Shown here one piece after another: positions 5,881-52,023 of a stretch of 52,688 nucleotides of DNA. Numbering within the stretch: the stretch's first letter is position 1; each line of letters starts with the position of its first letter. The notes beneath the pieces are model-generated. The model was not told where the DNA came from and ran no database searches. It saw nothing but the letters and a program-made list of their open reading frames with translations. Source of the DNA: a virus (lineage: Duplodnaviria > Heunggongvirae > Uroviricota > Caudoviricetes); IMG/VR virus record IMGVR_UViG_2531839667_000013. One strand, written 5' to 3'. Position numbers and translations under genes: made by a program.

Positions 5881-6183
5881 CCGGATGCCGCGCCAGCGGC
5901 ATGTAGGGGCAGCTCACAAAACGGAAAAAATTGTACGCTAAGCCTCGCCAGGTGAACTGAATTCATTCCGATATGGGAATTCCCATATCGGACGAAAACG
6001 GCTTGCTGTAACGGCAGAGTTAAGTAGAATTGCTGCGGGTGCTTGAGGCTATCTGCCTCGGGCATGAACACCAACGGCAGATAGATAAAAGCCCCACCCG
6101 ACTATAAATCGAAGTGAGGCCCCTATATGCTCGTCACATATAGATTGCCTCTTACGGACCGAAAGGTCAAGGAGAAGCAGGCT

Positions 6184-6339
6184 ATGAAGCAGCAAAAGGC
6201 GATGTTAATCGCCCTGATCGTCATCTGTTTAACCGTCATAGTGACGGCACTGGTAACGAGGAAAGACCTCTGCGAGGTACGAATCCGAACCGGCCAGACG
6301 GAGGTCGCTGTCTTCACAGCTTACGAATCTGAGGAGTAA
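6184..6339 (+). CDS. hokD: Hok/Gef-family type I toxin (51 aa); in-frame upstream extension from 6127
   Basis: MKQQKAMLIALIVICLTVIVTALVTRKDLCEVRIRTGQTEVAVFTAYESEE near-identical to recalled HokD/RelF; fold-back region and terminator downstream. Confidence 0.85.
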   Translation: MKQQKAMLIALIVICLTVIVTALVTRKDLCEVRIRTGQTEVAVFTAYESEE

Positions 6340-6820: not shown

Positions 6821-6886
6821 ATTCATCTACAATTCAGCACAGGGCTGAACCCCTGTTGAGTAACACTGTGCCACCGGAGAAAACCG

Positions 6887-7165
6887 ATGGCGCAAAATTC
6901 CAGACCACACAATTCTGATAATTCAGCCGTCTTTGCCAGCAGGCACGGGCGGCGTTCTCATGCATTCAAATATGACTGGTACCAGCATGACCCATGCACT
7001 GAAGAACAGGCCGAATGGCTGATTCAGAACTACCGCAGGCGTGGGTATGAGTTTAGGAAAGCCCTCAGCCTCGATTATCGTCACTGGATAATCTACGTCA
7101 GGCTCCCTTATTCCGAACGCCCACCGCGTCCGTCCCGCACATTCCAGCAACGCATCTGGAGGTAA
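6887..7165 (+). CDS. Hypothetical nin-region protein (92 aa), possibly Rem-like
   Basis: GGAG RBS; sits immediately upstream of the YdfU-like gene, the position rem holds in Qin. Confidence 0.45.
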   Translation: MAQNSRPHNSDNSAVFASRHGRRSHAFKYDWYQHDPCTEEQAEWLIQNYRRRGYEFRKALSLDYRHWIIYVRLPYSERPPRPSRTFQQRIWR

Positions 7166-10815: not shown

Positions 10816-10891
10816 GGCCCTTTAGCTCAGTGGTGAGAGCGAGCGACTCATAATCGCCAGGTCGCTGGTTCAAATCCAGCAAGGGCCACCA
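10816..10891 (+). tRNA. tRNA-Ile (anticodon CAU, ileX/ileZ-like, lysidine type)
   Basis: Cloverleaf: acceptor GGCCCTT/AAGGGCC, anticodon loop CTCATAA, T-loop GGTTCAAATCC, 3' ACCA; close to recalled E. coli ileX. Confidence 0.85.
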
Positions 10892-10991
10892 TCACATACC
10901 GCCATTAGCTTATCAGGAAGAGCAGACGACACCATAACAGGGTTGTTGGTGCGGGGGCGGGTCCCCGATGGCGGTCCATTATCGGTATTCT

Positions 10992-11068
10992 GCGTTGTTA
11001 GCTCAGCCGGACAGAGCAATTGCCTTCTAAGCAATCGGTCACTGGTTCGACTCCACTACAACGCGCCA
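10992..11068 (+). tRNA. tRNA-Arg (anticodon UCU)
   Basis: Acceptor GCGTTGT/ACAACGC, anticodon loop CTTCTAA, T-loop GGTTCGACTCC, 3' GCCA. Confidence 0.85.
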
Positions 11069-11834: not shown

Positions 11835-12035
11835 TTTTTTTGTTTGCTGTTTATTAAAAACACTTCTGCATGGTGAATCCCCCTGTGCGGAGGGGCAATC
11901 AGCGAGTAGGTATATGGGATAATCGCGGATTCAGGTGCTGGTACTGAATTCACCGGGAGGCACCCGGCACCATGCTTTGCCACAAAAGTGTTATTTCTGT
12001 TTTTCTCAAACTATCATCGTTATCCCTTTATTTCC

Positions 12036-49483: not shown

Positions 49484-50164
49484 ATGGATTCTATAGATAA
49501 AAGGTTTCTTGATTTTATTCGATCTAAGAAAAATAATATAGTATTGGACGATAAGAAGGATGATTTCAAAAAAGACGATGGCTCTAGTTCGAAAATGGCA
49601 GATTATTTGTTATTTAATAACGATGTTATTTTAGAGCAAAAATTACTTACAAATGACAGAACTGATTTAATAAATGAAAAAATTAATGAGCTAGCTAAGA
49701 CTGATGAATGGCTTAAAAGAAGTTGGTTCGGTAGGGTTCATATTGAGGAATTGATTCAAAAACACCCCGACTCAGATGCTTTCAGAAAAAAGATAATGGA
49801 TTATGCTTATAGAAATATAAAAGATCTTGTAGCAACCTCCAATAGACAGATTAGAGTAACAAAGGAATCTTTAAATATTCCTAGAGCAGTCGGTGGACTT
49901 GTTATTCTTAATGAATCGATAATGCCTTATGAATCTGAAAATGTAATGAAAGAACTTAATTTTCTTGTTGAAAATCCACATTATGAACATGTTGATTTTG
50001 TTCTCTATATATCAGAACTACGTAGATCAACACATAATATGATTGATATGTCAGCAATTATAAAAAGCAGCTCTCCAAGATATGAGTTTGTAAACTGGTA
50101 TATAAAAAACGTTTTCTCATTCGATTTCGCTTCATTTTTTAATCACCCTATACAATTTTTATAG
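49484..50164 (+). CDS. Hypothetical protein (226 aa); possible nuclease-like motif
   Basis: ATG with AGGAAAG RBS; ADYLLFNNDVILEQK could be read as a D-x11-ExK motif, but this is weak. Confidence 0.4.
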   Translation: MDSIDKRFLDFIRSKKNNIVLDDKKDDFKKDDGSSSKMADYLLFNNDVILEQKLLTNDRTDLINEKINELAKTDEWLKRSWFGRVHIEELIQKHPDSDAFRKKIMDYAYRNIKDLVATSNRQIRVTKESLNIPRAVGGLVILNESIMPYESENVMKELNFLVENPHYEHVDFVLYISELRRSTHNMIDMSAIIKSSSPRYEFVNWYIKNVFSFDFASFFNHPIQFL

Positions 50165-50248: not shown

Positions 50249-50830
50249 CTACTGCGTTTTGCCTTGGCAATTAATTTTGTTCTCTTTAGTTTTAGCTTTT
50301 TTGTCCTTCAAGTAATAAGTTTTCATGAAGGTTAAGCGATCACCATTAAACATATAGTCTGGATTAATAAAATAATAGTTCTGTATCATGGTCTCAGCAA
50401 TAAATTTCTTGTCAGCAAGTTCTTTCATCCCTTTGAAATATGTCGTTCTTGATATTTTTACAATCTCTTGATCAACAATATCGAATGACATTAATATCGT
50501 ATCTGTATCTTTATTGTCTCTAATAGCAAGATACAGTATCTTAAATACTTTCTTACCTGATGAGGATAAACCCTCAATAGCTGATACGCCATCCACATAA
50601 AGCTTCACGAACTGTGTCTTGTCTACTTCCATTGACTGAAAGAAACCACCATGCCCAACCTGTTCTCCTGTATTTTCATTTACTACGGCTAAGCGGTCTT
50701 TTCCTGTTGTGATACGTCTGATACCTGTTTTTGTATGTATATTTGTATCATTAAGGAATGGGTTTTTTACATGGCGAGGTAGACCTCTTCTTGATTTCTT
50801 TACTTCCGTTTGTATCTTATTTTCTATCAT
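50249..50830 (-). CDS. Putative winged-helix DNA-binding protein, RepL-like (replication/maintenance or regulator)
   Basis: NENTGEQ...FVKLYVDGVSAIEGLSSSGKKVFKILYLAIRDNKDTDTILMSFDIVDQEI...ISRTTYFKGMKELADKKFI resembles the RepL family pattern as recalled. Confidence 0.3.
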   Translation of the reverse strand: MIENKIQTEVKKSRRGLPRHVKNPFLNDTNIHTKTGIRRITTGKDRLAVVNENTGEQVGHGGFFQSMEVDKTQFVKLYVDGVSAIEGLSSSGKKVFKILYLAIRDNKDTDTILMSFDIVDQEIVKISRTTYFKGMKELADKKFIAETMIQNYYFINPDYMFNGDRLTFMKTYYLKDKKAKTKENKINCQGKTQ

Positions 50831-51753
50831 GGTATTTACTCCTTTATTTTTTTAGTTATACATTTAAGTAAATACTATATTTTGCGTGCAAGTCAATACT
50901 TAAAGTTTATATTTTTTAAAATAACTAACACTTGATGTTTTTACGTATAAAACTTGTAGTGCTACAGAATATATACAAATAACACTTTATTATTTTTATT
51001 TGAGAATAGTTATCAACTTAAGTACCGGGATTCGGGACTTTAACTCCCGAGAGTGCGTACTTTGTTTTAAGCTATAGCTGGCTTGAGAGCAGTTTTCTTC
51101 TTCATTATTCAAATAGCGAAGCTTTGGATGACATTTTAAAGAATATAATATTGGAAACAGTTCTTCTTTTTAGTTGATTGGTGCCATTATCAAAATGGCA
51201 CCAGTGGTGTTATCTGTGTTATTTTTCCTACTATGTTATTACAGCGAAGTGATTGTTGTATACAATCACGAACCGCTGCTACTATCGGGACTGCTTGATT
51301 AATTTTACTTTAACTTTATATGCGTCTACGACGCGATCTTTTTTGGATAAATCCAATATTAACAGGGGCAAGCCCTGTTCAGCAGAGTGATTGTTCGCAA
51401 CAATCATGAAGTGCTGCTATCAAGGATATAGTTTTCCTATACGTTTAAGAGCAAATGCTATATGTCTAAAGGGAAAAACTATGTTTAAACATAGGATCTA
51501 AATTCAGCATCATGAGGAAAAGAGATCAAACAATGATCGAGTACTTTTTTTATTTAAAAGACAGGAGATGAATAAAATAAAAATATCAGCGTCAGGGCGT
51601 AGCCGTGCGTAAGCACAGAGATAAAGATCTTTTCAAAAAGAAGTTTAATAATAAGAAGTAAAATCATAAATAAATGAAAATATATTTGATTTTTACGCTT
51701 ACAATAGAGTATTAAACAGTAATAAAATAATAAAATAATAAAATGAAAATACA

Positions 51754-52023
51754 ATGAACAATATTAAAATGATCACACTCTTCCATCCACATGACAAAAC
51801 ACCATTCATGATCTCTATTGTATGCAAAGTAGAAGATACAGAACTTGGATTGAAATTAACTCTTGAAAACGGCAACAACATTTGTGTCAATAATTATAGT
51901 CATTATCTGTTATCAGAGTCTGCAAGTCGTTGCGATAAACACAGGTTAAAGAATATTTATATTCGATTGGTTTCTGAACTCACGCAGATGAGTGATGAAA
52001 CTATAAAATCGCAAATGTTATAA
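51754..52023 (+). CDS. Hypothetical protein (89 aa)
   Basis: ORF in extremely AT-rich DNA; no recognised domain. Confidence 0.3.
   Translation: MNNIKMITLFHPHDKTPFMISIVCKVEDTELGLKLTLENGNNICVNNYSHYLLSESASRCDKHRLKNIYIRLVSELTQMSDETIKSQML

What the first reader, a model, noticed from the sequence alone, without database searches (positions are those of the whole stretch)
51180..51420. Paired palindromes in AT-rich intergenic DNA
Two copies of a related element lie about 140 bp apart: GTGATTGTTGTATACAATCAC (51249-51269) and GTGATTGTTCGCAACAATCAT (51387-51407), each followed by GCTGCTA. Additional hairpins sit at 51181-51201 and 51361-51380. They are 420-580 bp upstream of the RepL-like gene start and could be its binding sites, an origin, or operators for an unidentified regulator.
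Basis: seen in the sequence. Interest (0 to 1): 0.45.

Follow-up and report, generated by a model that had tools for sequence, protein, structure and literature searches.

The report
Conserved hairpin repeats in a mobilisable island
The two palindromes are real copies of a strand-specific hairpin motif that marks an undescribed, structured non-coding region conserved in ROD21-like (EARL) mobilisable genomic islands across Enterobacterales; they are not RepL-specific sites, and my best guess is that they are single-strand DNA priming or origin signals.

Summary
A 40-nt unit occurs at 51242-51281 and 51380-51419. Each copy has an outer CAGCR/YGCTG stem, an inner GTGATTGT-N5-ACAATCAY stem and a GCTGCT tail.

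The window's right end is an EARL/ROD21-like mobilisable island, the same family as the CFT073 and Nissle serU/tcpC island. The motif (D) is present in 49 enterobacterial species loci, with 1-3 copies per locus, always on the same strand.

D sits in a ~450-nt array of hairpins (A, B, C, D, E and others, plus an invariant GGGCGTAGCCGTGC block). Hairpins A and C show compensatory changes.

The array is the same next to three RepL types that share only 22-35% identity, and next to RepL genes on either side or strand. The iteron-like repeats differ with RepL type. RepL-specific binding is therefore unlikely.

Nothing matches in Rfam or the phage collection. The only plasmid matches are four records: two carry the island gene set and two were not examined. 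The EARL papers I read do not describe the array.

Function is unproven. My ranking:
- sso/ssi-like single-strand priming signals of the island's replication/transfer origin region: ~0.3
- operators of an unknown regulator (TATAGT lies 19 nt downstream of D; TACAAT lies inside copy 1): ~0.25
- structured RNA: ~0.2
- secondary MobQ relaxase sites: ~0.1

The parts
50249..50830 (-). RepL-like gene (193 aa), divergent from the hairpin array
   Evidence: ORF; Pfam PF05732 RepL, E=1.5e-5; annotated 'replication/maintenance protein RepL' in E. coli WL297 and CFT073.
51181..51203 (+). Hairpin H0: GGTGCCATTATCAAAATGGCACC
   Evidence: Folds. A GTGCC..GGCAC hairpin is conserved at this position in many, not all, loci, with a variable loop.
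51242..51281 (+). Motif D, copy 1: outer stem CAGCG/CGCTG, inner stem GTGATTGT/ACAATCAC (51249-51269), tail GCTGCTA. The loop plus 3' arm spell TACAAT (51261-51266).
   Evidence: Copy-1-type alignment. A TACAAT-type -10 with a weak -35 is found in 30 of 41 copy-1 sequences.
51322..51344 (+). Hairpin A (GCGTC-TAC-GACGC) followed by GATC and a T6 run; terminator-like on the + strand
   Evidence: Terminator scan and fold. Compensatory changes occur at two pairs: GC 41 / UA 7 / AU 1, and GC 40 / UA 11 / AU 3.
51343..51356 (+). Hairpin/palindrome B (TTGGATAAATCCAA). It overlaps a DnaA-box-like 9-mer, TTTGGATAA, whose reverse complement is TTATCCAAA.
   Evidence: Nearly invariant in 57 modules. One mismatch to TGTGGATAA.
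51361..51379 (+). Hairpin C (AACAGGG-GCAAG-CCCTGTT), always immediately 5' of copy-2/3-type D
   Evidence: Folds. Compensatory changes: AU 51 / GC 5 / CG 1, and GC 48 / AU 5. The Yersinia version is GGAGG..CTCC.
51380..51419 (+). Motif D, copy 2: outer stem CAGCA/TGCTG, inner stem GTGATTGTT/AACAATCAT (51387-51407), tail GCTGCTA
   Evidence: Alignment of 57 full modules. Inner-stem cells are 99.3% paired and 4 of 8 pairs never vary.
51426..51463 (+). Block E: ATATAGTTTTCCTATACGTTTAAGAGCAAATGCTATAT. It contains a -10-like TATAGT (51427-51432) 19 nt after D2, and alternative stems (ATATAG with CTATA or with GCTATAT).
   Evidence: Conserved. TATAGT is at a fixed distance in 38 of 57 modules. On the + strand, 19 G.T pairs against 4 A.C.
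51479..51494 (+). Palindrome/hairpin CTATGTTTAAACATAG
   Evidence: Aligned. Pair counts: 122 Watson-Crick, 9 G.T, 2 A.C.
51524..51538 (+). GATC-N7-GATC hairpin, part of a GATC cluster (51495, 51524, 51535, 51626)
   Evidence: The L007 variant GAAC..GTTC keeps the pairing. Four GATC sites observed against 0.63 expected in 51420-51660.
51595..51616 (+). Invariant block GGGCGTAGCCGTGC-loop-GCAC. In other loci the loop is expanded by a ~25-nt insert that looks self-complementary, and the block is followed by the hairpin ATGAGCGTTAGCTCAT.
   Evidence: Found 169-222 nt (mostly 217-218) downstream of the last D in most loci, and 80-84 nt in a short variant.
51686..51715 (+). Promoter-like site for orf89: TTGATT, 18-nt spacer, TATTAA. 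Many other loci have AAATTTGATTTT..TGGTAT at the equivalent place.
   Evidence: Read from the sequences. This is an inference, not a tool-scored promoter.
51754..52023 (+). orf89, the first rightward gene after the array; function unknown
   Evidence: Its start lies 337-415 nt after the last D in 18 of 19 loci checked (593 nt in L022). All homologues are unnamed. The AF2 model is low confidence (pLDDT 63), beta-rich, with no HTH or RHH evident.

Best explanation
The two palindromes are copies of motif D, the most conserved hairpin of a ~450-600-nt, plus-strand-specific array of stem-loops. The order is H0, D1, A, B, C, D2, E, the palindrome, the GATC hairpin and the GGGCG block. This array forms the non-coding core between the RepL/iteron-like cassette(s) and the rightward genes of EARL (ROD21-like) mobilisable islands.

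I propose that the array works as single-stranded DNA. That state arises when the excised island is unwound at its RepL origin, or when it enters a recipient as the transferred strand. The plus strand would then fold into these hairpins, and they would act as single-strand initiation signals (sso/ssi-like). Conserved host machinery (primase, PriA or RNA polymerase) would start complementary-strand synthesis there. D, a hairpin followed by the invariant ..AGYG-CTG-CT tail, would be the recognition and start site, by analogy with phage G4.

Shown here:
- the motif, its conservation and its fixed strand;
- compensatory changes in neighbouring hairpins;
- independence from RepL type.

Inferred, not shown: that the active form is ssDNA rather than RNA or duplex DNA; which factor recognises D; and that priming occurs.
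For: 1. D is conserved with a fixed orientation: 85 distinct copies in 49 enterobacterial-type loci, 1-3 per locus, all on one strand.

2. The neighbouring hairpins A and C show compensatory substitutions. Overall, 18 pairs have changes on both sides against 9.0 in shuffles, and the covariation score is 0.146 against 0.079 (0 of 500 shuffles as high). Slid controls score about 0.03-0.06. The GTGC..GCAC stem tolerates a ~25-nt insert. Duplex protein-binding sites do not predict these features; a folded single strand does.

3. The region folds far better than shuffles as DNA: z = -5.7 for 531 nt and z = -5.0 for the A-B-C-D module. The D hairpins (-11.0 and -8.5 kcal/mol) match G4 stem-loop I (-10.8).

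4. Wobble asymmetry points to the plus strand. G.T against A.C counts are 9:2 for the D inner stem, 19:4 for E and 9:2 for the palindrome.

5. Distribution is cassette-like. The same array sits beside three RepL types of 22-35% identity, to the right of a minus-strand RepL in about 35 loci and to the left of a plus-strand RepL in 13 loci. Its orientation relative to mobQ is constant in 11 of 11 loci. This mirrors how sso cassettes are shared among rolling-circle plasmids with different Rep proteins (PMC5703833).

6. The D inner stem (4 of 8 pairs never vary in 57 modules; 99.3% of cells paired) and the GGGCG block (recovered at <=2 mismatches in most loci) are almost invariant, while island proteins diverge: orf89 40-58%, MobQ 46-73%, RepL 22-35%. 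That fits recognition by conserved host factors.

7. Precedents exist. pSN2-type RepL plasmids replicate by rolling circle and carry ssoA (PMC5703833). ICEBs1 has an orientation-specific sso needed for stable acquisition (PMC4595007). In the G4 record the primer starts at a CTG 3 nt after stem-loop I. In D, G of the CTG is kept in 84 of 85 copies, 6 nt after the inner stem.

8. The context looks like an origin: iteron-like repeats in two RepL types, a DnaA-box-like 9-mer and a GATC cluster.
Against: - There is no experimental or transcript evidence.
- There is no sequence similarity to G4 or to any phage record. The only plasmid matches are four records; two carry the island gene set and two were not examined.
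- The CTG is predicted to be base-paired in the outer stem rather than exposed.
- D itself shows almost no covariation, so it could equally be a duplex operator.
- Promoter-like hexamers sit at fixed positions relative to D. That favours a transcriptional role.
- Single-copy loci and extra B-C-D copies upstream of traD fit a regulatory site as well as they fit a priming site.
- The transferred strand is inferred only from an unverified oriT candidate next to mobQ.
- G.T excess would also be expected for a plus-strand RNA.
Confidence: 0.3

Rival explanations
1. Duplex-DNA operator. D is the binding site of a dimeric transcription factor, encoded by the island or the host, that controls rightward promoters. 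Copy 1 would overlap a TACAAT -10, acting like a repressor site. Copies 2 and 3 would be centred near -42 of a TATAGT promoter that has a poor -35, a class-II-activator-like geometry. The extra copies upstream of traD would place the transfer operon in the same regulon.
For: - The inner half-sites GTGATTGT/ACAATCAC are invariant while the centre varies, which is the classic operator pattern.
- TATAGT lies exactly 19 nt after D in 38 of 57 full modules.
- TACAAT lies inside D in 30 of 41 copy-1 sequences, and copy type correlates with the loop bases: TA in copy 1, GA/AA/AG in copies 2 and 3.
- B-C-D units lie upstream of traD in several islands, about 5-100 nt from -35-like TTGACA hexamers or candidate -10 hexamers read by eye.
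- The orientation is always co-directional with the downstream genes.
Against: - No cognate regulator was identified. orf89, the first downstream gene, gives only a low-confidence model that shows no HTH or RHH fold.
- An operator would be expected to co-diverge with an island-encoded regulator, as the iteron-like repeats do with RepL. D is invariant across genera.
- The outer arms are asymmetric (2-nt against 4-nt spacers), which is odd for a symmetric dimer.
- The model does not explain the compensatory changes in hairpins A and C or the variable insert in the GGGCG stem.
- Promoter-like hexamers are common in 30%-GC DNA: 5 were found against 5.3 expected.
- The short variant and the traD-proximal copies lack TATAGT at the fixed distance.
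Confidence: 0.25
2. Structured RNA. The array is transcribed rightward as a long leader or a separate non-coding RNA. D, C and the downstream hairpins would be RNA stem-loops serving as protein-binding, stability, processing or attenuation elements. Hairpin A with its U-run would act as a terminator or attenuator.
For: - Compensatory changes occur in the hairpins, and the GGGCG stem has a variable-length stem-loop.
- G.U tolerance is on the plus strand.
- Hairpin A followed by a T-run scores as a terminator-like site on the plus strand.
- As RNA the 261-nt core folds with z = -5.3.
- Block E offers alternative pairings (ATATAG with CTATA or with GCTATAT), and D1 can pair with D2.
- The orientation always matches the downstream genes.
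Against: - There is no Rfam match at the gathering or E-value thresholds in two representatives.
- No convincing conserved promoter lies upstream of the whole array, and no terminator lies at its end.
- orf89 appears to have its own conserved promoter about 40 nt upstream of its ATG, so the array need not be its 5' UTR.
- If TACAAT or TATAGT are the promoters, D1 and the 5' arm of E would lie outside the transcript.
- The T-run after hairpin A is not conserved in all lineages.
Confidence: 0.2
3. Relaxase sites. D copies are secondary or vestigial MOBQ oriT-like sites bound, and possibly nicked, by the island's MobQ relaxase. They could serve for alternative transfer initiation or termination, or for relaxase-driven rolling-circle replication next to RepL.
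For: - MobQ's N-terminal domain is homologous to NES of pLW1043 (4HT4, E=7e-23) and to MobA of R1162.
- The oriTs of those relaxases, as I recall them, are a hairpin followed directly by (A)TAAGTGCGCC. The recalled strings occur verbatim in pSK41 and in a small E. coli plasmid I take to be IncQ-like.
- Copy-2-type D is a hairpin followed directly by TAAGTGC.
- D orientation is constant relative to mobQ in 11 of 11 loci.
- Variable copy number (1-3) could result from relaxase-mediated recombination between direct repeats.
Against: - The nick-flanking core GCG|CCCT is absent from D.
- Copy-1 tails read GAAGCGC or GAACCGC, and position +2 of the tail varies.
- A better-placed candidate oriT lies about 120 nt upstream of mobQ and is conserved in five loci: ACACTGC-GTA-GCAGTGT followed by ATA(G/A)GTGGGC. 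Its hairpin arms are unrelated to those of D.
- Matches of 7 in 12 to the MOBQ core are frequent by chance in 900 nt.
- Actively nicked direct repeats 138 nt apart should be unstable, yet the pair is conserved.
Confidence: 0.1
4. RepL binding sites (iterons or operators). RepL would bind the palindromes to initiate replication or to autoregulate.
For: The copies lie within 420-560 nt of the repL start, and RepL family proteins carry an HTH domain (PMC5703833).
Against: - The identical palindrome accompanies RepL proteins of 22-35% identity.
- It also accompanies RepL genes located on either side and either strand of the array.
- Two other RepL types each have their own tandem iteron-like repeats close to the gene: GGTTTCCNNNNGGAAAC-type in the Klebsiella locus and ATCTACAATCGTGAAGAAA-type in the Yersinia locus. 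A downstream plus-strand RepL has TTCCTGACT..GTCAG repeats.
- D also occurs upstream of traD, away from any RepL.
Confidence: 0.03

Closest known systems
Single-strand origins (ssoA/U/T/W) of rolling-circle plasmids, and sso1 of ICEBs1
   Same: Both are non-coding, orientation-fixed clusters of stem-loops. Both are shared as a cassette among replicons with unrelated Rep proteins. Both sit on elements that pass through a single-stranded stage, and RepL (PF05732) plasmids of the pSN2 family carry an ssoA (PMC5703833, PMC4595007).
   Different: I found no sequence similarity. The CS-6 motif, as I recall it (TAGCGT/TAGCGA), is not in a hairpin loop; the only TAGCGA is at 51114, outside the array. 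The host is Gram-negative. The element is repeated 1-3 times, and activity has not been tested.
G4-type single-strand initiation signals (phage G4 complementary-strand origin; plasmid 'G-sites' such as that of R1, from my own knowledge)
   Same: Both have several consecutive stable hairpins on one strand followed by a CTG. The D hairpin energy equals that of G4 stem-loop I. In the G4 record the primer starts at the CTG 3 nt after stem-loop I. In D, G of the CTG is kept in 84 of 85 copies.
   Different: There is no sequence homology. In D the CTG is 6 nt after the inner stem and is predicted to be paired in the outer stem. The D stems are AT-rich, and primase dependence is untested.
ssiA/ssiB priming hairpins in the IncQ (RSF1010) oriV (from my own knowledge)
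   Same: Both place 40-nt hairpin-plus-tail elements next to iterons in an origin, on a mobilisable MOBQ element.
   Different: The IncQ sites face each other on opposite strands and are read by a plasmid primase (RepB'). All D copies share one strand, and no primase gene was seen in the parts of the island examined.
MOBQ origins of transfer (RSF1010/R1162, pSK41/pLW1043)
   Same: Both have an inverted repeat immediately followed by TAAGTGC. The island encodes a NES/MobA-like relaxase.
   Different: D lacks the GCG|CCCT nick core. It is multi-copy and lies about 8-9 kb from mobQ in the E. coli relative. A different hairpin with an ATAGGTGGGC tail next to mobQ is the likelier oriT.
Repeated palindromic operators of plasmid global regulators (for example the KorA/KorB regulons of IncP; from my own knowledge)
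   Same: Both are identical palindromes placed upstream of several operons (orf89 or RepL(+), and traD) at fixed distances from -10-like hexamers.
   Different: No regulator is known. The flanking hairpins covary like folded nucleic acid, and the outer arms of D are asymmetric.
Frpo-type single-stranded-DNA promoters of conjugative-plasmid leading regions (from my own knowledge)
   Same: Both would be strand-specific folded DNA on the transferred strand. D1 and D2 can pair into a ~38-bp imperfect duplex that contains TACAAT.
   Different: The -35-like hexamer would be largely unpaired. Single-copy loci cannot form the duplex. I found no homology, and the position is not a leading region if the mobQ-proximal oriT is correct.

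Membership tests
RepL iterons / Rep-binding sites | Repeat sequence co-varies with the Rep protein type | tested here: not met
   D is invariant beside RepL proteins of 22-35% identity. Separate iteron-like repeats differ by RepL type.
RepL iterons / Rep-binding sites | Fixed position and orientation relative to the rep gene | tested here: not met
   A minus-strand RepL lies left of D in about 35 loci and a plus-strand RepL lies right of D in 13. Four or five loci have only the downstream RepL. D orientation is unchanged throughout.
MOBQ oriT (RSF1010 / pSK41 type) | Inverted repeat directly 5' of the nick region | tested here: met
   An 8-9-bp inner stem is immediately followed by the tail.
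MOBQ oriT (RSF1010 / pSK41 type) | Conserved core AAGTGCGCC|CT with the nick after G | tested here: not met
   Copy-2-type tails read TAAGTGCTGCTT (7 of 12 matches, without GCG|CCCT). Copy-1 tails read GAAGCGC or GAACCGC. The reference strings were confirmed to exist in plasmids.
MOBQ oriT (RSF1010 / pSK41 type) | Located next to its relaxase gene | tested here: not met
   The window copies correspond to sites about 8-9 kb from mobQ in E. coli WL297. A different conserved hairpin lies about 120 nt upstream of mobQ.
MOBQ oriT (RSF1010 / pSK41 type) | Site-specific cleavage by the cognate relaxase | not testable with these tools
   Needs a nicking assay with MobQ.
G4-type ssi | Cluster of stable hairpins on one strand of ssDNA | tested here: met
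   The A-B-C-D module folds at -22.6 kcal/mol, z = -5.0; the 531-nt region gives z = -5.7; covariation is seen in A and C.
G4-type ssi | CTG start site just 3' of the last hairpin, single-stranded | tested here: inconclusive
   G of the CTG is kept in 84 of 85 copies, 6 nt after the inner stem, but it is predicted to be paired in the 5-bp outer stem. In G4 the CTG is 3 nt after stem-loop I.
G4-type ssi | Sequence homology to G4-like origins | tested here: not met
   No match in 50,697 phage records.
G4-type ssi | Primase-dependent, rifampicin-resistant priming on SSB-coated DNA | not testable with these tools
   Needs an in vitro or M13-based assay.
sso of rolling-circle replicons | Non-coding, orientation-specific, cassette-like distribution across Rep types | tested here: met
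   All copies lie on one strand, and the same array sits beside three RepL types.
sso of rolling-circle replicons | Conserved RSB / CS-6 (TAGCGT or TAGCGA in a terminal loop; motif recalled from memory) | tested here: not met
   No TAGCGT on either strand. A single TAGCGA at 51114 lies outside the hairpins. RSB was not tested.
sso of rolling-circle replicons | Promotes second-strand synthesis in one orientation only | not testable with these tools
   Needs plasmid ssDNA-accumulation or stability assays.
Known RNA families (Rfam 15) | Score at or above a family's gathering threshold | tested here: not met
   No hit in 50800-51800 at gathering or at E<=10 beyond noise. The same holds for the Dickeya locus.
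Palindromic operator of a transcription factor | Conserved half-sites with a variable centre at a fixed distance from a promoter | tested here: inconclusive
   Half-sites are invariant. TATAGT lies 19 nt downstream in 38 of 57 modules, and TACAAT lies inside copy 1 in 30 of 41. Promoters are unverified, and the pattern is absent in the short and traD-proximal variants.
Palindromic operator of a transcription factor | Identified cognate DNA-binding protein | tested here: inconclusive
   orf89 has no named homologues and a low-confidence beta-rich model. Other candidates were not tested.
   E. coli genomes that have any match carry a median of one place and a maximum of three. Matches are always in this island locus, and nothing is annotated over the intergenic region in the E. 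coli records.

The most novel reading that the evidence does not exclude
The hairpin array is active as folded single-stranded DNA on the transferred (plus) strand and does two things in a new recipient. It primes complementary-strand synthesis. Through D1:D2 pairing into a Frpo-like duplex that carries TACAAT, it also drives early leftward transcription of repL, the DUF4756 gene and the H-NS-like 'stealth' gene hfp before the island is double-stranded.

A related variant is that the HUH-less RepL recruits the MobQ relaxase to nick at the TAAGTGC tails of D and so start rolling-circle replication.
Probability: 0.07. Interest if true: 0.72.

Novelty: new variant of a known kind. Interest (0 to 1): 0.48.

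Why it matters
EARL/ROD21-like islands include Salmonella Enteritidis ROD21, K. pneumoniae ICEKp258.2, and the serU/tcpC island of UPEC CFT073 and of probiotic Nissle 1917. They carry virulence and anti-phage cargo. In the papers I read, their oriT is not mapped and their oriV and regulation are not described (PMC6035254, PMC10763509).

About 10-12% of complete E. coli genomes carry this array. The ~450-nt conserved cis-acting region next to RepL is the obvious candidate for the control point of replication, or of establishment after transfer.

If it is an sso/ssi-like element, it would extend the ICEBs1 finding to Gram-negative mobilisable islands: that integrative elements need dedicated second-strand origins. 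It would also give a defined target for testing how these islands establish in new hosts. If it is an operator or an RNA instead, it defines an unknown regulon shared by the replication and transfer modules.

Tried and rejected
- **Rfam.** I searched the whole window at gathering thresholds and the region at E<=10, and did the same for a Dickeya homologue. Nothing relevant turned up.
- **BLAST against phages and plasmids.** I queried the 901-nt region, a 184-nt module consensus and a 73-nt C-D unit. There were no phage hits. The only plasmid matches were four records; two carry the island gene set and two were not examined.
- **Full-text search for the palindrome halves.** It returned only unrelated eukaryotic papers. 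The EARL/ROD21 papers and a CFT073 tcpC paper do not mention the region.
- **orf89 as the cognate regulator.** Its homologues are all hypothetical proteins, and the AF2 model has pLDDT 63. That is too poor for a fold search and shows no HTH or RHH.
- **Pfam and NCBIfam scans of neighbouring ORFs.** They gave nothing useful beyond RepL, DUF4756, AlpA, H-NS and MobA_MobL.
- **Strand assignment from G.T against A.C counts.** Hairpins A, B, C and the outer D stem were ambiguous. Only the inner D stem, E and the palindrome favour the plus strand.
- **Candidate identities considered from memory and by eye, and dropped:**
  - CRISPR mini-array (spacing 138 nt, two copies);
  - type III toxin-antitoxin repeat array (copies not tandem);
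  - integron attC;
  - XerCD dif/cer sites;
  - CRP, LexA, Fur, matS or SlmA boxes (spacing or half-sites do not fit);
  - shufflon sfx sites;
  - ERIC/REP elements;
  - a P4-type seqA/B/C RNA immunity system (no supporting feature beyond paired repeats).
- **A minus-strand promoter TTGCTC-18-TATATT overlapping block E.** It is present in only 23 of 57 modules and reads TATATC in the window.
- **The GGGCG block as a minus-strand MOBQ nick site (..CTACG|CCCT).** It matches 7 of 12 positions, no better than the other candidates, so I left it as an open observation.
Full report
**Observation**

- The two 21-mers lie at 51249-51269 and 51387-51407.
- Each is followed after 5 nt by GCTGCTA.
- They are 138 nt apart.
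- They lie 419 and 557 nt upstream of the start of a minus-strand RepL-like ORF (50249-50830; Pfam RepL, E=1.5e-5).

It is a 40-nt direct repeat at 51242-51281 and 51380-51419. In each copy an outer 5-bp stem encloses the inner palindrome through an asymmetric internal loop. The outer stem is CAGCG/CGCTG in copy 1 and CAGCA/TGCTG in copy 2. As DNA the copies fold at -11.0 and -8.5 kcal/mol.

Chance is excluded. The degenerate pattern occurs only at these two places in the 52.7-kb window, against 0.10 expected.

**Context**

Positions 1 to about 42 kb of the window look like a lambdoid prophage: the ORF layout together with tRNA-Met, tRNA-Arg, sok and STnc100. The last ~9 kb belong to a genomic island.

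In E. coli WL297 and CFT073 the same island lies at tRNA-Ser, next to mtfA and tRNA-Asn. Its gene order is:
- DUF6387, AlpA and truncated plus full-length H-NS-like genes;
- DUF4756 and RepL (minus strand);
- a ~900-bp unannotated gap;
- small rightward ORFs and defence or virulence cargo (SIR2/TIR in WL297, tcpC in CFT073);
- a MobQ relaxase on the minus strand;
- in WL297, TraD and type IV pilus genes beyond the relaxase; the CFT073 locus I fetched ends at mobQ.

[quoted passage not shown] The family has a MOBQ relaxase and TraD but no T4SS (PMC6035254, PMC10763509). In CFT073 it is the 'serU island' that carries tcpC and an hns-like gene (PMC8835471).

The gap region is present in 518-671 of 5,426 complete E. 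coli genomes, always chromosomal, with nothing annotated over it. Carriers include CFT073, Nissle 1917 and NC101.

**The motif family**

A 21-specified-base pattern (GTGATTG N7 CAATCAY N AA NN GCTGCT) scanned over one genome per species returned 51 loci. Forty-nine are enterobacterial-type loci: Escherichia, Salmonella, Klebsiella, Citrobacter, Enterobacter, Yersinia, Serratia, Pectobacterium, Dickeya, Brenneria, Photorhabdus and others. A few MAG contigs carry misleading labels. Two hits look like chance matches.

A relaxed search finds 99 copies, of which 85 are distinct. There are 1-3 per locus, and all copies within a locus are on one strand. Spacings are about 138-142, 164, 292-330 and 468-499 nt.

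The consensus is yCAGCRAW-GTGATTGT-N5-ACAATCAC-KAAGYGCTGCTt.
- The inner arms are essentially invariant.
- The five central bases vary.
- G of the CTG in the tail is kept in 84 of 85 copies.

**A larger module**

Copies of the second and third type are preceded by three further elements:
- hairpin A (GCGGC-TAYC-GCCGC followed by a T-rich run);
- the invariant palindrome B (ATGGATAAATCCAT);
- hairpin C (ACAGGG-N5-CCCTGT).

They are followed by block E (ATATAGTTTTCCTATACGTTTAAGAGCAAATGCTATAT).

Downstream come two more hairpins and an invariant block. These are CTATGTTTAAACATAG and GATC-N7-GATC, then GGGCGTAGCCGTGC..GCAC.
- The block lies at a strikingly constant 217-218 nt from the last D in many loci (range 169-222, plus a short variant at 80-84).
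- Its loop is expanded in ten of the 26 aligned loci by a ~25-nt insert that looks self-complementary.
- In most loci it is followed by the hairpin ATGAGCGTTAGCTCAT.

In the window these features are at 51322-51344 (A), 51343-51356 (B), 51361-51379 (C), 51426-51463 (E), 51479-51494, 51524-51538 and 51595-51616.

**Evidence for folded single strands**

On an alignment of 57 modules the proposed helices are 93% paired.
- Eighteen pairs show changes on both sides, against 9.0 in shuffles.
- The covariation score is 0.146 against 0.079, and 0 of 500 shuffles reach it.
- Versions with the 3' partner slid by 1-3 columns score about 0.03-0.06.

The compensatory changes are concentrated in A (GC to UA/AU at two pairs) and C (AU to GC, GC to AU). 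D's inner stem hardly varies: 4 of its 8 pairs are invariant, and there are three small compensated cases.

As DNA the 531-nt region folds with z = -5.7 and the A-B-C-D module with z = -5.0.

G.T pairs outnumber A.C pairs for the inner D stem, E and the palindrome: 37 against 8 in total. This points to the plus strand as the functional one. Hairpins A, B, C and the outer stem are uninformative on this point.

**Not RepL sites**

The RepL proteins next to the array fall into at least three types that share only 22-35% identity. Two of them have their own, mutually unrelated, tandem iteron-like repeats close to the gene. I saw no clear tandem iterons for the window's own type. The array itself keeps about 70-80% nucleotide identity and an invariant D.

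In about 35 loci a minus-strand RepL lies to the left of the array. In 13 loci a plus-strand RepL lies to the right. In four or five loci only the right-hand RepL is present. D never changes orientation. By contrast, mobQ is on the opposite strand to D in all 11 loci where both are visible.

A shorter B-C-D unit also occurs in the mobQ-traD intergenic region of several islands, far from any RepL.

**Transfer origin**

MobQ's N-terminal domain is homologous to the NES and MobA relaxases.

About 120 nt upstream of mobQ there is a conserved hairpin, ACACTGC-GTA-GCAGTGT. It is followed by ATAGGTGGGC, or ATAAGTGGGC in Pectobacterium. It lies on the same strand as D in five loci. It resembles the hairpin-plus-ATAAGTGCGCC architecture of MOBQ oriTs. 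That role is from my own memory, but the strings I recalled occur verbatim in pSK41 and in a small E. coli plasmid that I take to be IncQ-like.

I take this site as the likeliest oriT. If so, the plus strand, which is the strand on which D reads hairpin-then-tail, is the transferred strand.

D's own tail (TAAGTGC in copy-2-type copies) also resembles the MOBQ core. It lacks the GCG|CCCT nick context, is multi-copy, and differs in copy 1.

**Promoter-like features**

A simple scan projected onto the alignments gave two results.
- A -10-like TATAGT lies exactly 19 nt after D in 38 of 57 full modules. That puts the centre of D near -42 of a promoter with a poor -35.
- A TACAAT, formed by the loop and 3' arm, is present in 30 of 41 copy-1 sequences, with weak -35 hexamers 16-17 nt upstream.

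The loop bases differ systematically between copy types: TA in copy 1, and GA, AA or AG in copies 2 and 3. These observations are the main support for an operator/promoter reading.

They are weak in 30%-GC DNA, where the tool finds as many promoter-like sites as in shuffles. They are also absent in the short and traD-proximal variants.

orf89, the first gene downstream, seems to have its own conserved promoter-like site about 40 nt upstream of its ATG. It has only unnamed homologues and a low-confidence, beta-rich model.

**Interpretation**

The data establish a conserved, strand-specific, multi-hairpin non-coding region that is characteristic of EARL islands. D is its signature element.

I favour a role as folded single-stranded DNA, at about 0.3. 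In this reading the array is an sso/ssi-like priming region, used when the excised island replicates from its RepL origin or arrives as the transferred strand. Four reasons:
- It explains the covariation and the fixed strand.
- It explains the cassette-like independence from RepL type.
- It explains the near-invariance of D and the GGGCG block despite divergent island proteins, because recognition would be by conserved host factors.
- It fits the origin-like surroundings: iteron-like repeats, a DnaA-box-like TTATCCAAA and four GATC sites against 0.63 expected.

Precedents exist in RepL-type rolling-circle plasmids with ssoA (PMC5703833) and in ICEBs1 sso1 (PMC4595007). The phage G4 origin is a further precedent: the annotated primer starts at a CTG just 3' of a hairpin of the same stability.

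The rivals remain live: a duplex operator (~0.25), a structured plus-strand RNA (~0.2) and secondary MobQ sites (~0.1). RepL binding is unlikely (~0.03).

**Novelty**

I found no description of the array in any source searched:
- Rfam has no match.
- No phage record matches. The only plasmid matches are four records; two carry the island gene set and two were not examined.
- The EARL and CFT073 papers I read do not mention it.

In kind, it resembles known cis-acting origin or operator elements. I therefore rate it as a new variant of a known kind, of moderate interest. It is directly testable in well-studied strains such as CFT073 and Nissle 1917.

Noticed in passing
window 51595-51616 (and the equivalent block about 170-220 nt right of the last D in most of L001-L054): An invariant block GGGCGTAGCCGTGC..GCAC. 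Its loop is replaced in ten of 26 aligned loci by a ~25-nt insert that looks self-complementary, and in most loci the block is followed by the hairpin ATGAGCGTTAGCTCAT. On the minus strand it reads hairpin + GGCTACG|CCCT, which loosely resembles a MOBQ nick core.
   Followed up: partly
L001 21785-21815; L003 11833-11863; also L011, L012, L026: A conserved hairpin ACACTGC-GTA-GCAGTGT followed by ATA(G/A)GTGGGCATTG, about 120 nt upstream of mobQ and on the same strand as motif D. It is the likeliest oriT of EARL islands; the papers I read do not map the oriT.
   Followed up: partly
L006, L009, L018, L020, L021, L031-L033, L037-L039, L043, L053 (oriented loci): Many islands carry a second, very different RepL gene on the plus strand, 0.6-0.9 kb right of the array. 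In the one locus I read in full (L020) it has its own TTCCTGACT..GTCAG iteron-like repeats. Some islands have only this RepL.
   Followed up: partly
L003 12290-12444; L013 7303-7457; L017 about 6870-7000; L026 5507-5661; L005 about 1610-1740: A shorter B-C-D unit (without A or E) is inserted in the mobQ-traD intergenic region of some islands. In the two loci where both sites are visible (L003, L026) it lies about 500 nt from the putative oriT. It is absent at that place in the E. coli relative L001.
   Followed up: partly
window 50831-51180: The ~350 nt upstream of the window-type repL are highly conserved among islands with this RepL type but show no clear tandem iterons. Only scattered ACTT-containing repeats are visible, plus a hairpin TCGGGA-CTTTAAC-TCCCGA (about 51031-51049) and a palindrome AGCTATAGCT (about 51070-51079).
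   Followed up: partly
window 48216-48620 (-) and 46060-46347 (+): A full-length H-NS-like protein (the same length as, and 95% identical to, the protein product also annotated in the CFT073 serU island) and a truncated H-NS N-terminal-domain protein are encoded on the island.
   Followed up: no
window 46691-48004 (-) and 49433-50164 (+): Two cargo ORFs (437 aa with an HFDDDH motif, and 243 aa) have no Pfam match. They occupy positions where other islands carry different cargo, such as NACHT or DUF6404 genes.
   Followed up: no
window 6037-6186, 10816-11068, 11839-12011, 41527-42986: The left part of the window is prophage-like. It holds a sok antitoxin RNA, tRNA-Met(CAT) and tRNA-Arg(TCT), STnc100, and ORFs near its right end with sub-threshold OspG-kinase-like and above-threshold NleF-like matches.
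   Followed up: no
L003 7409-7975 and homologues (73-78% identical across 10 loci: L003, L011, L016, L019, L027, L028, L030, L045; reference in Yersinia L002): A very conserved ~190-aa protein downstream of orf89 has only weak hits (tRNA_anti-like OB fold; lipoprotein signal). It is much better conserved than its neighbours.
   Followed up: no
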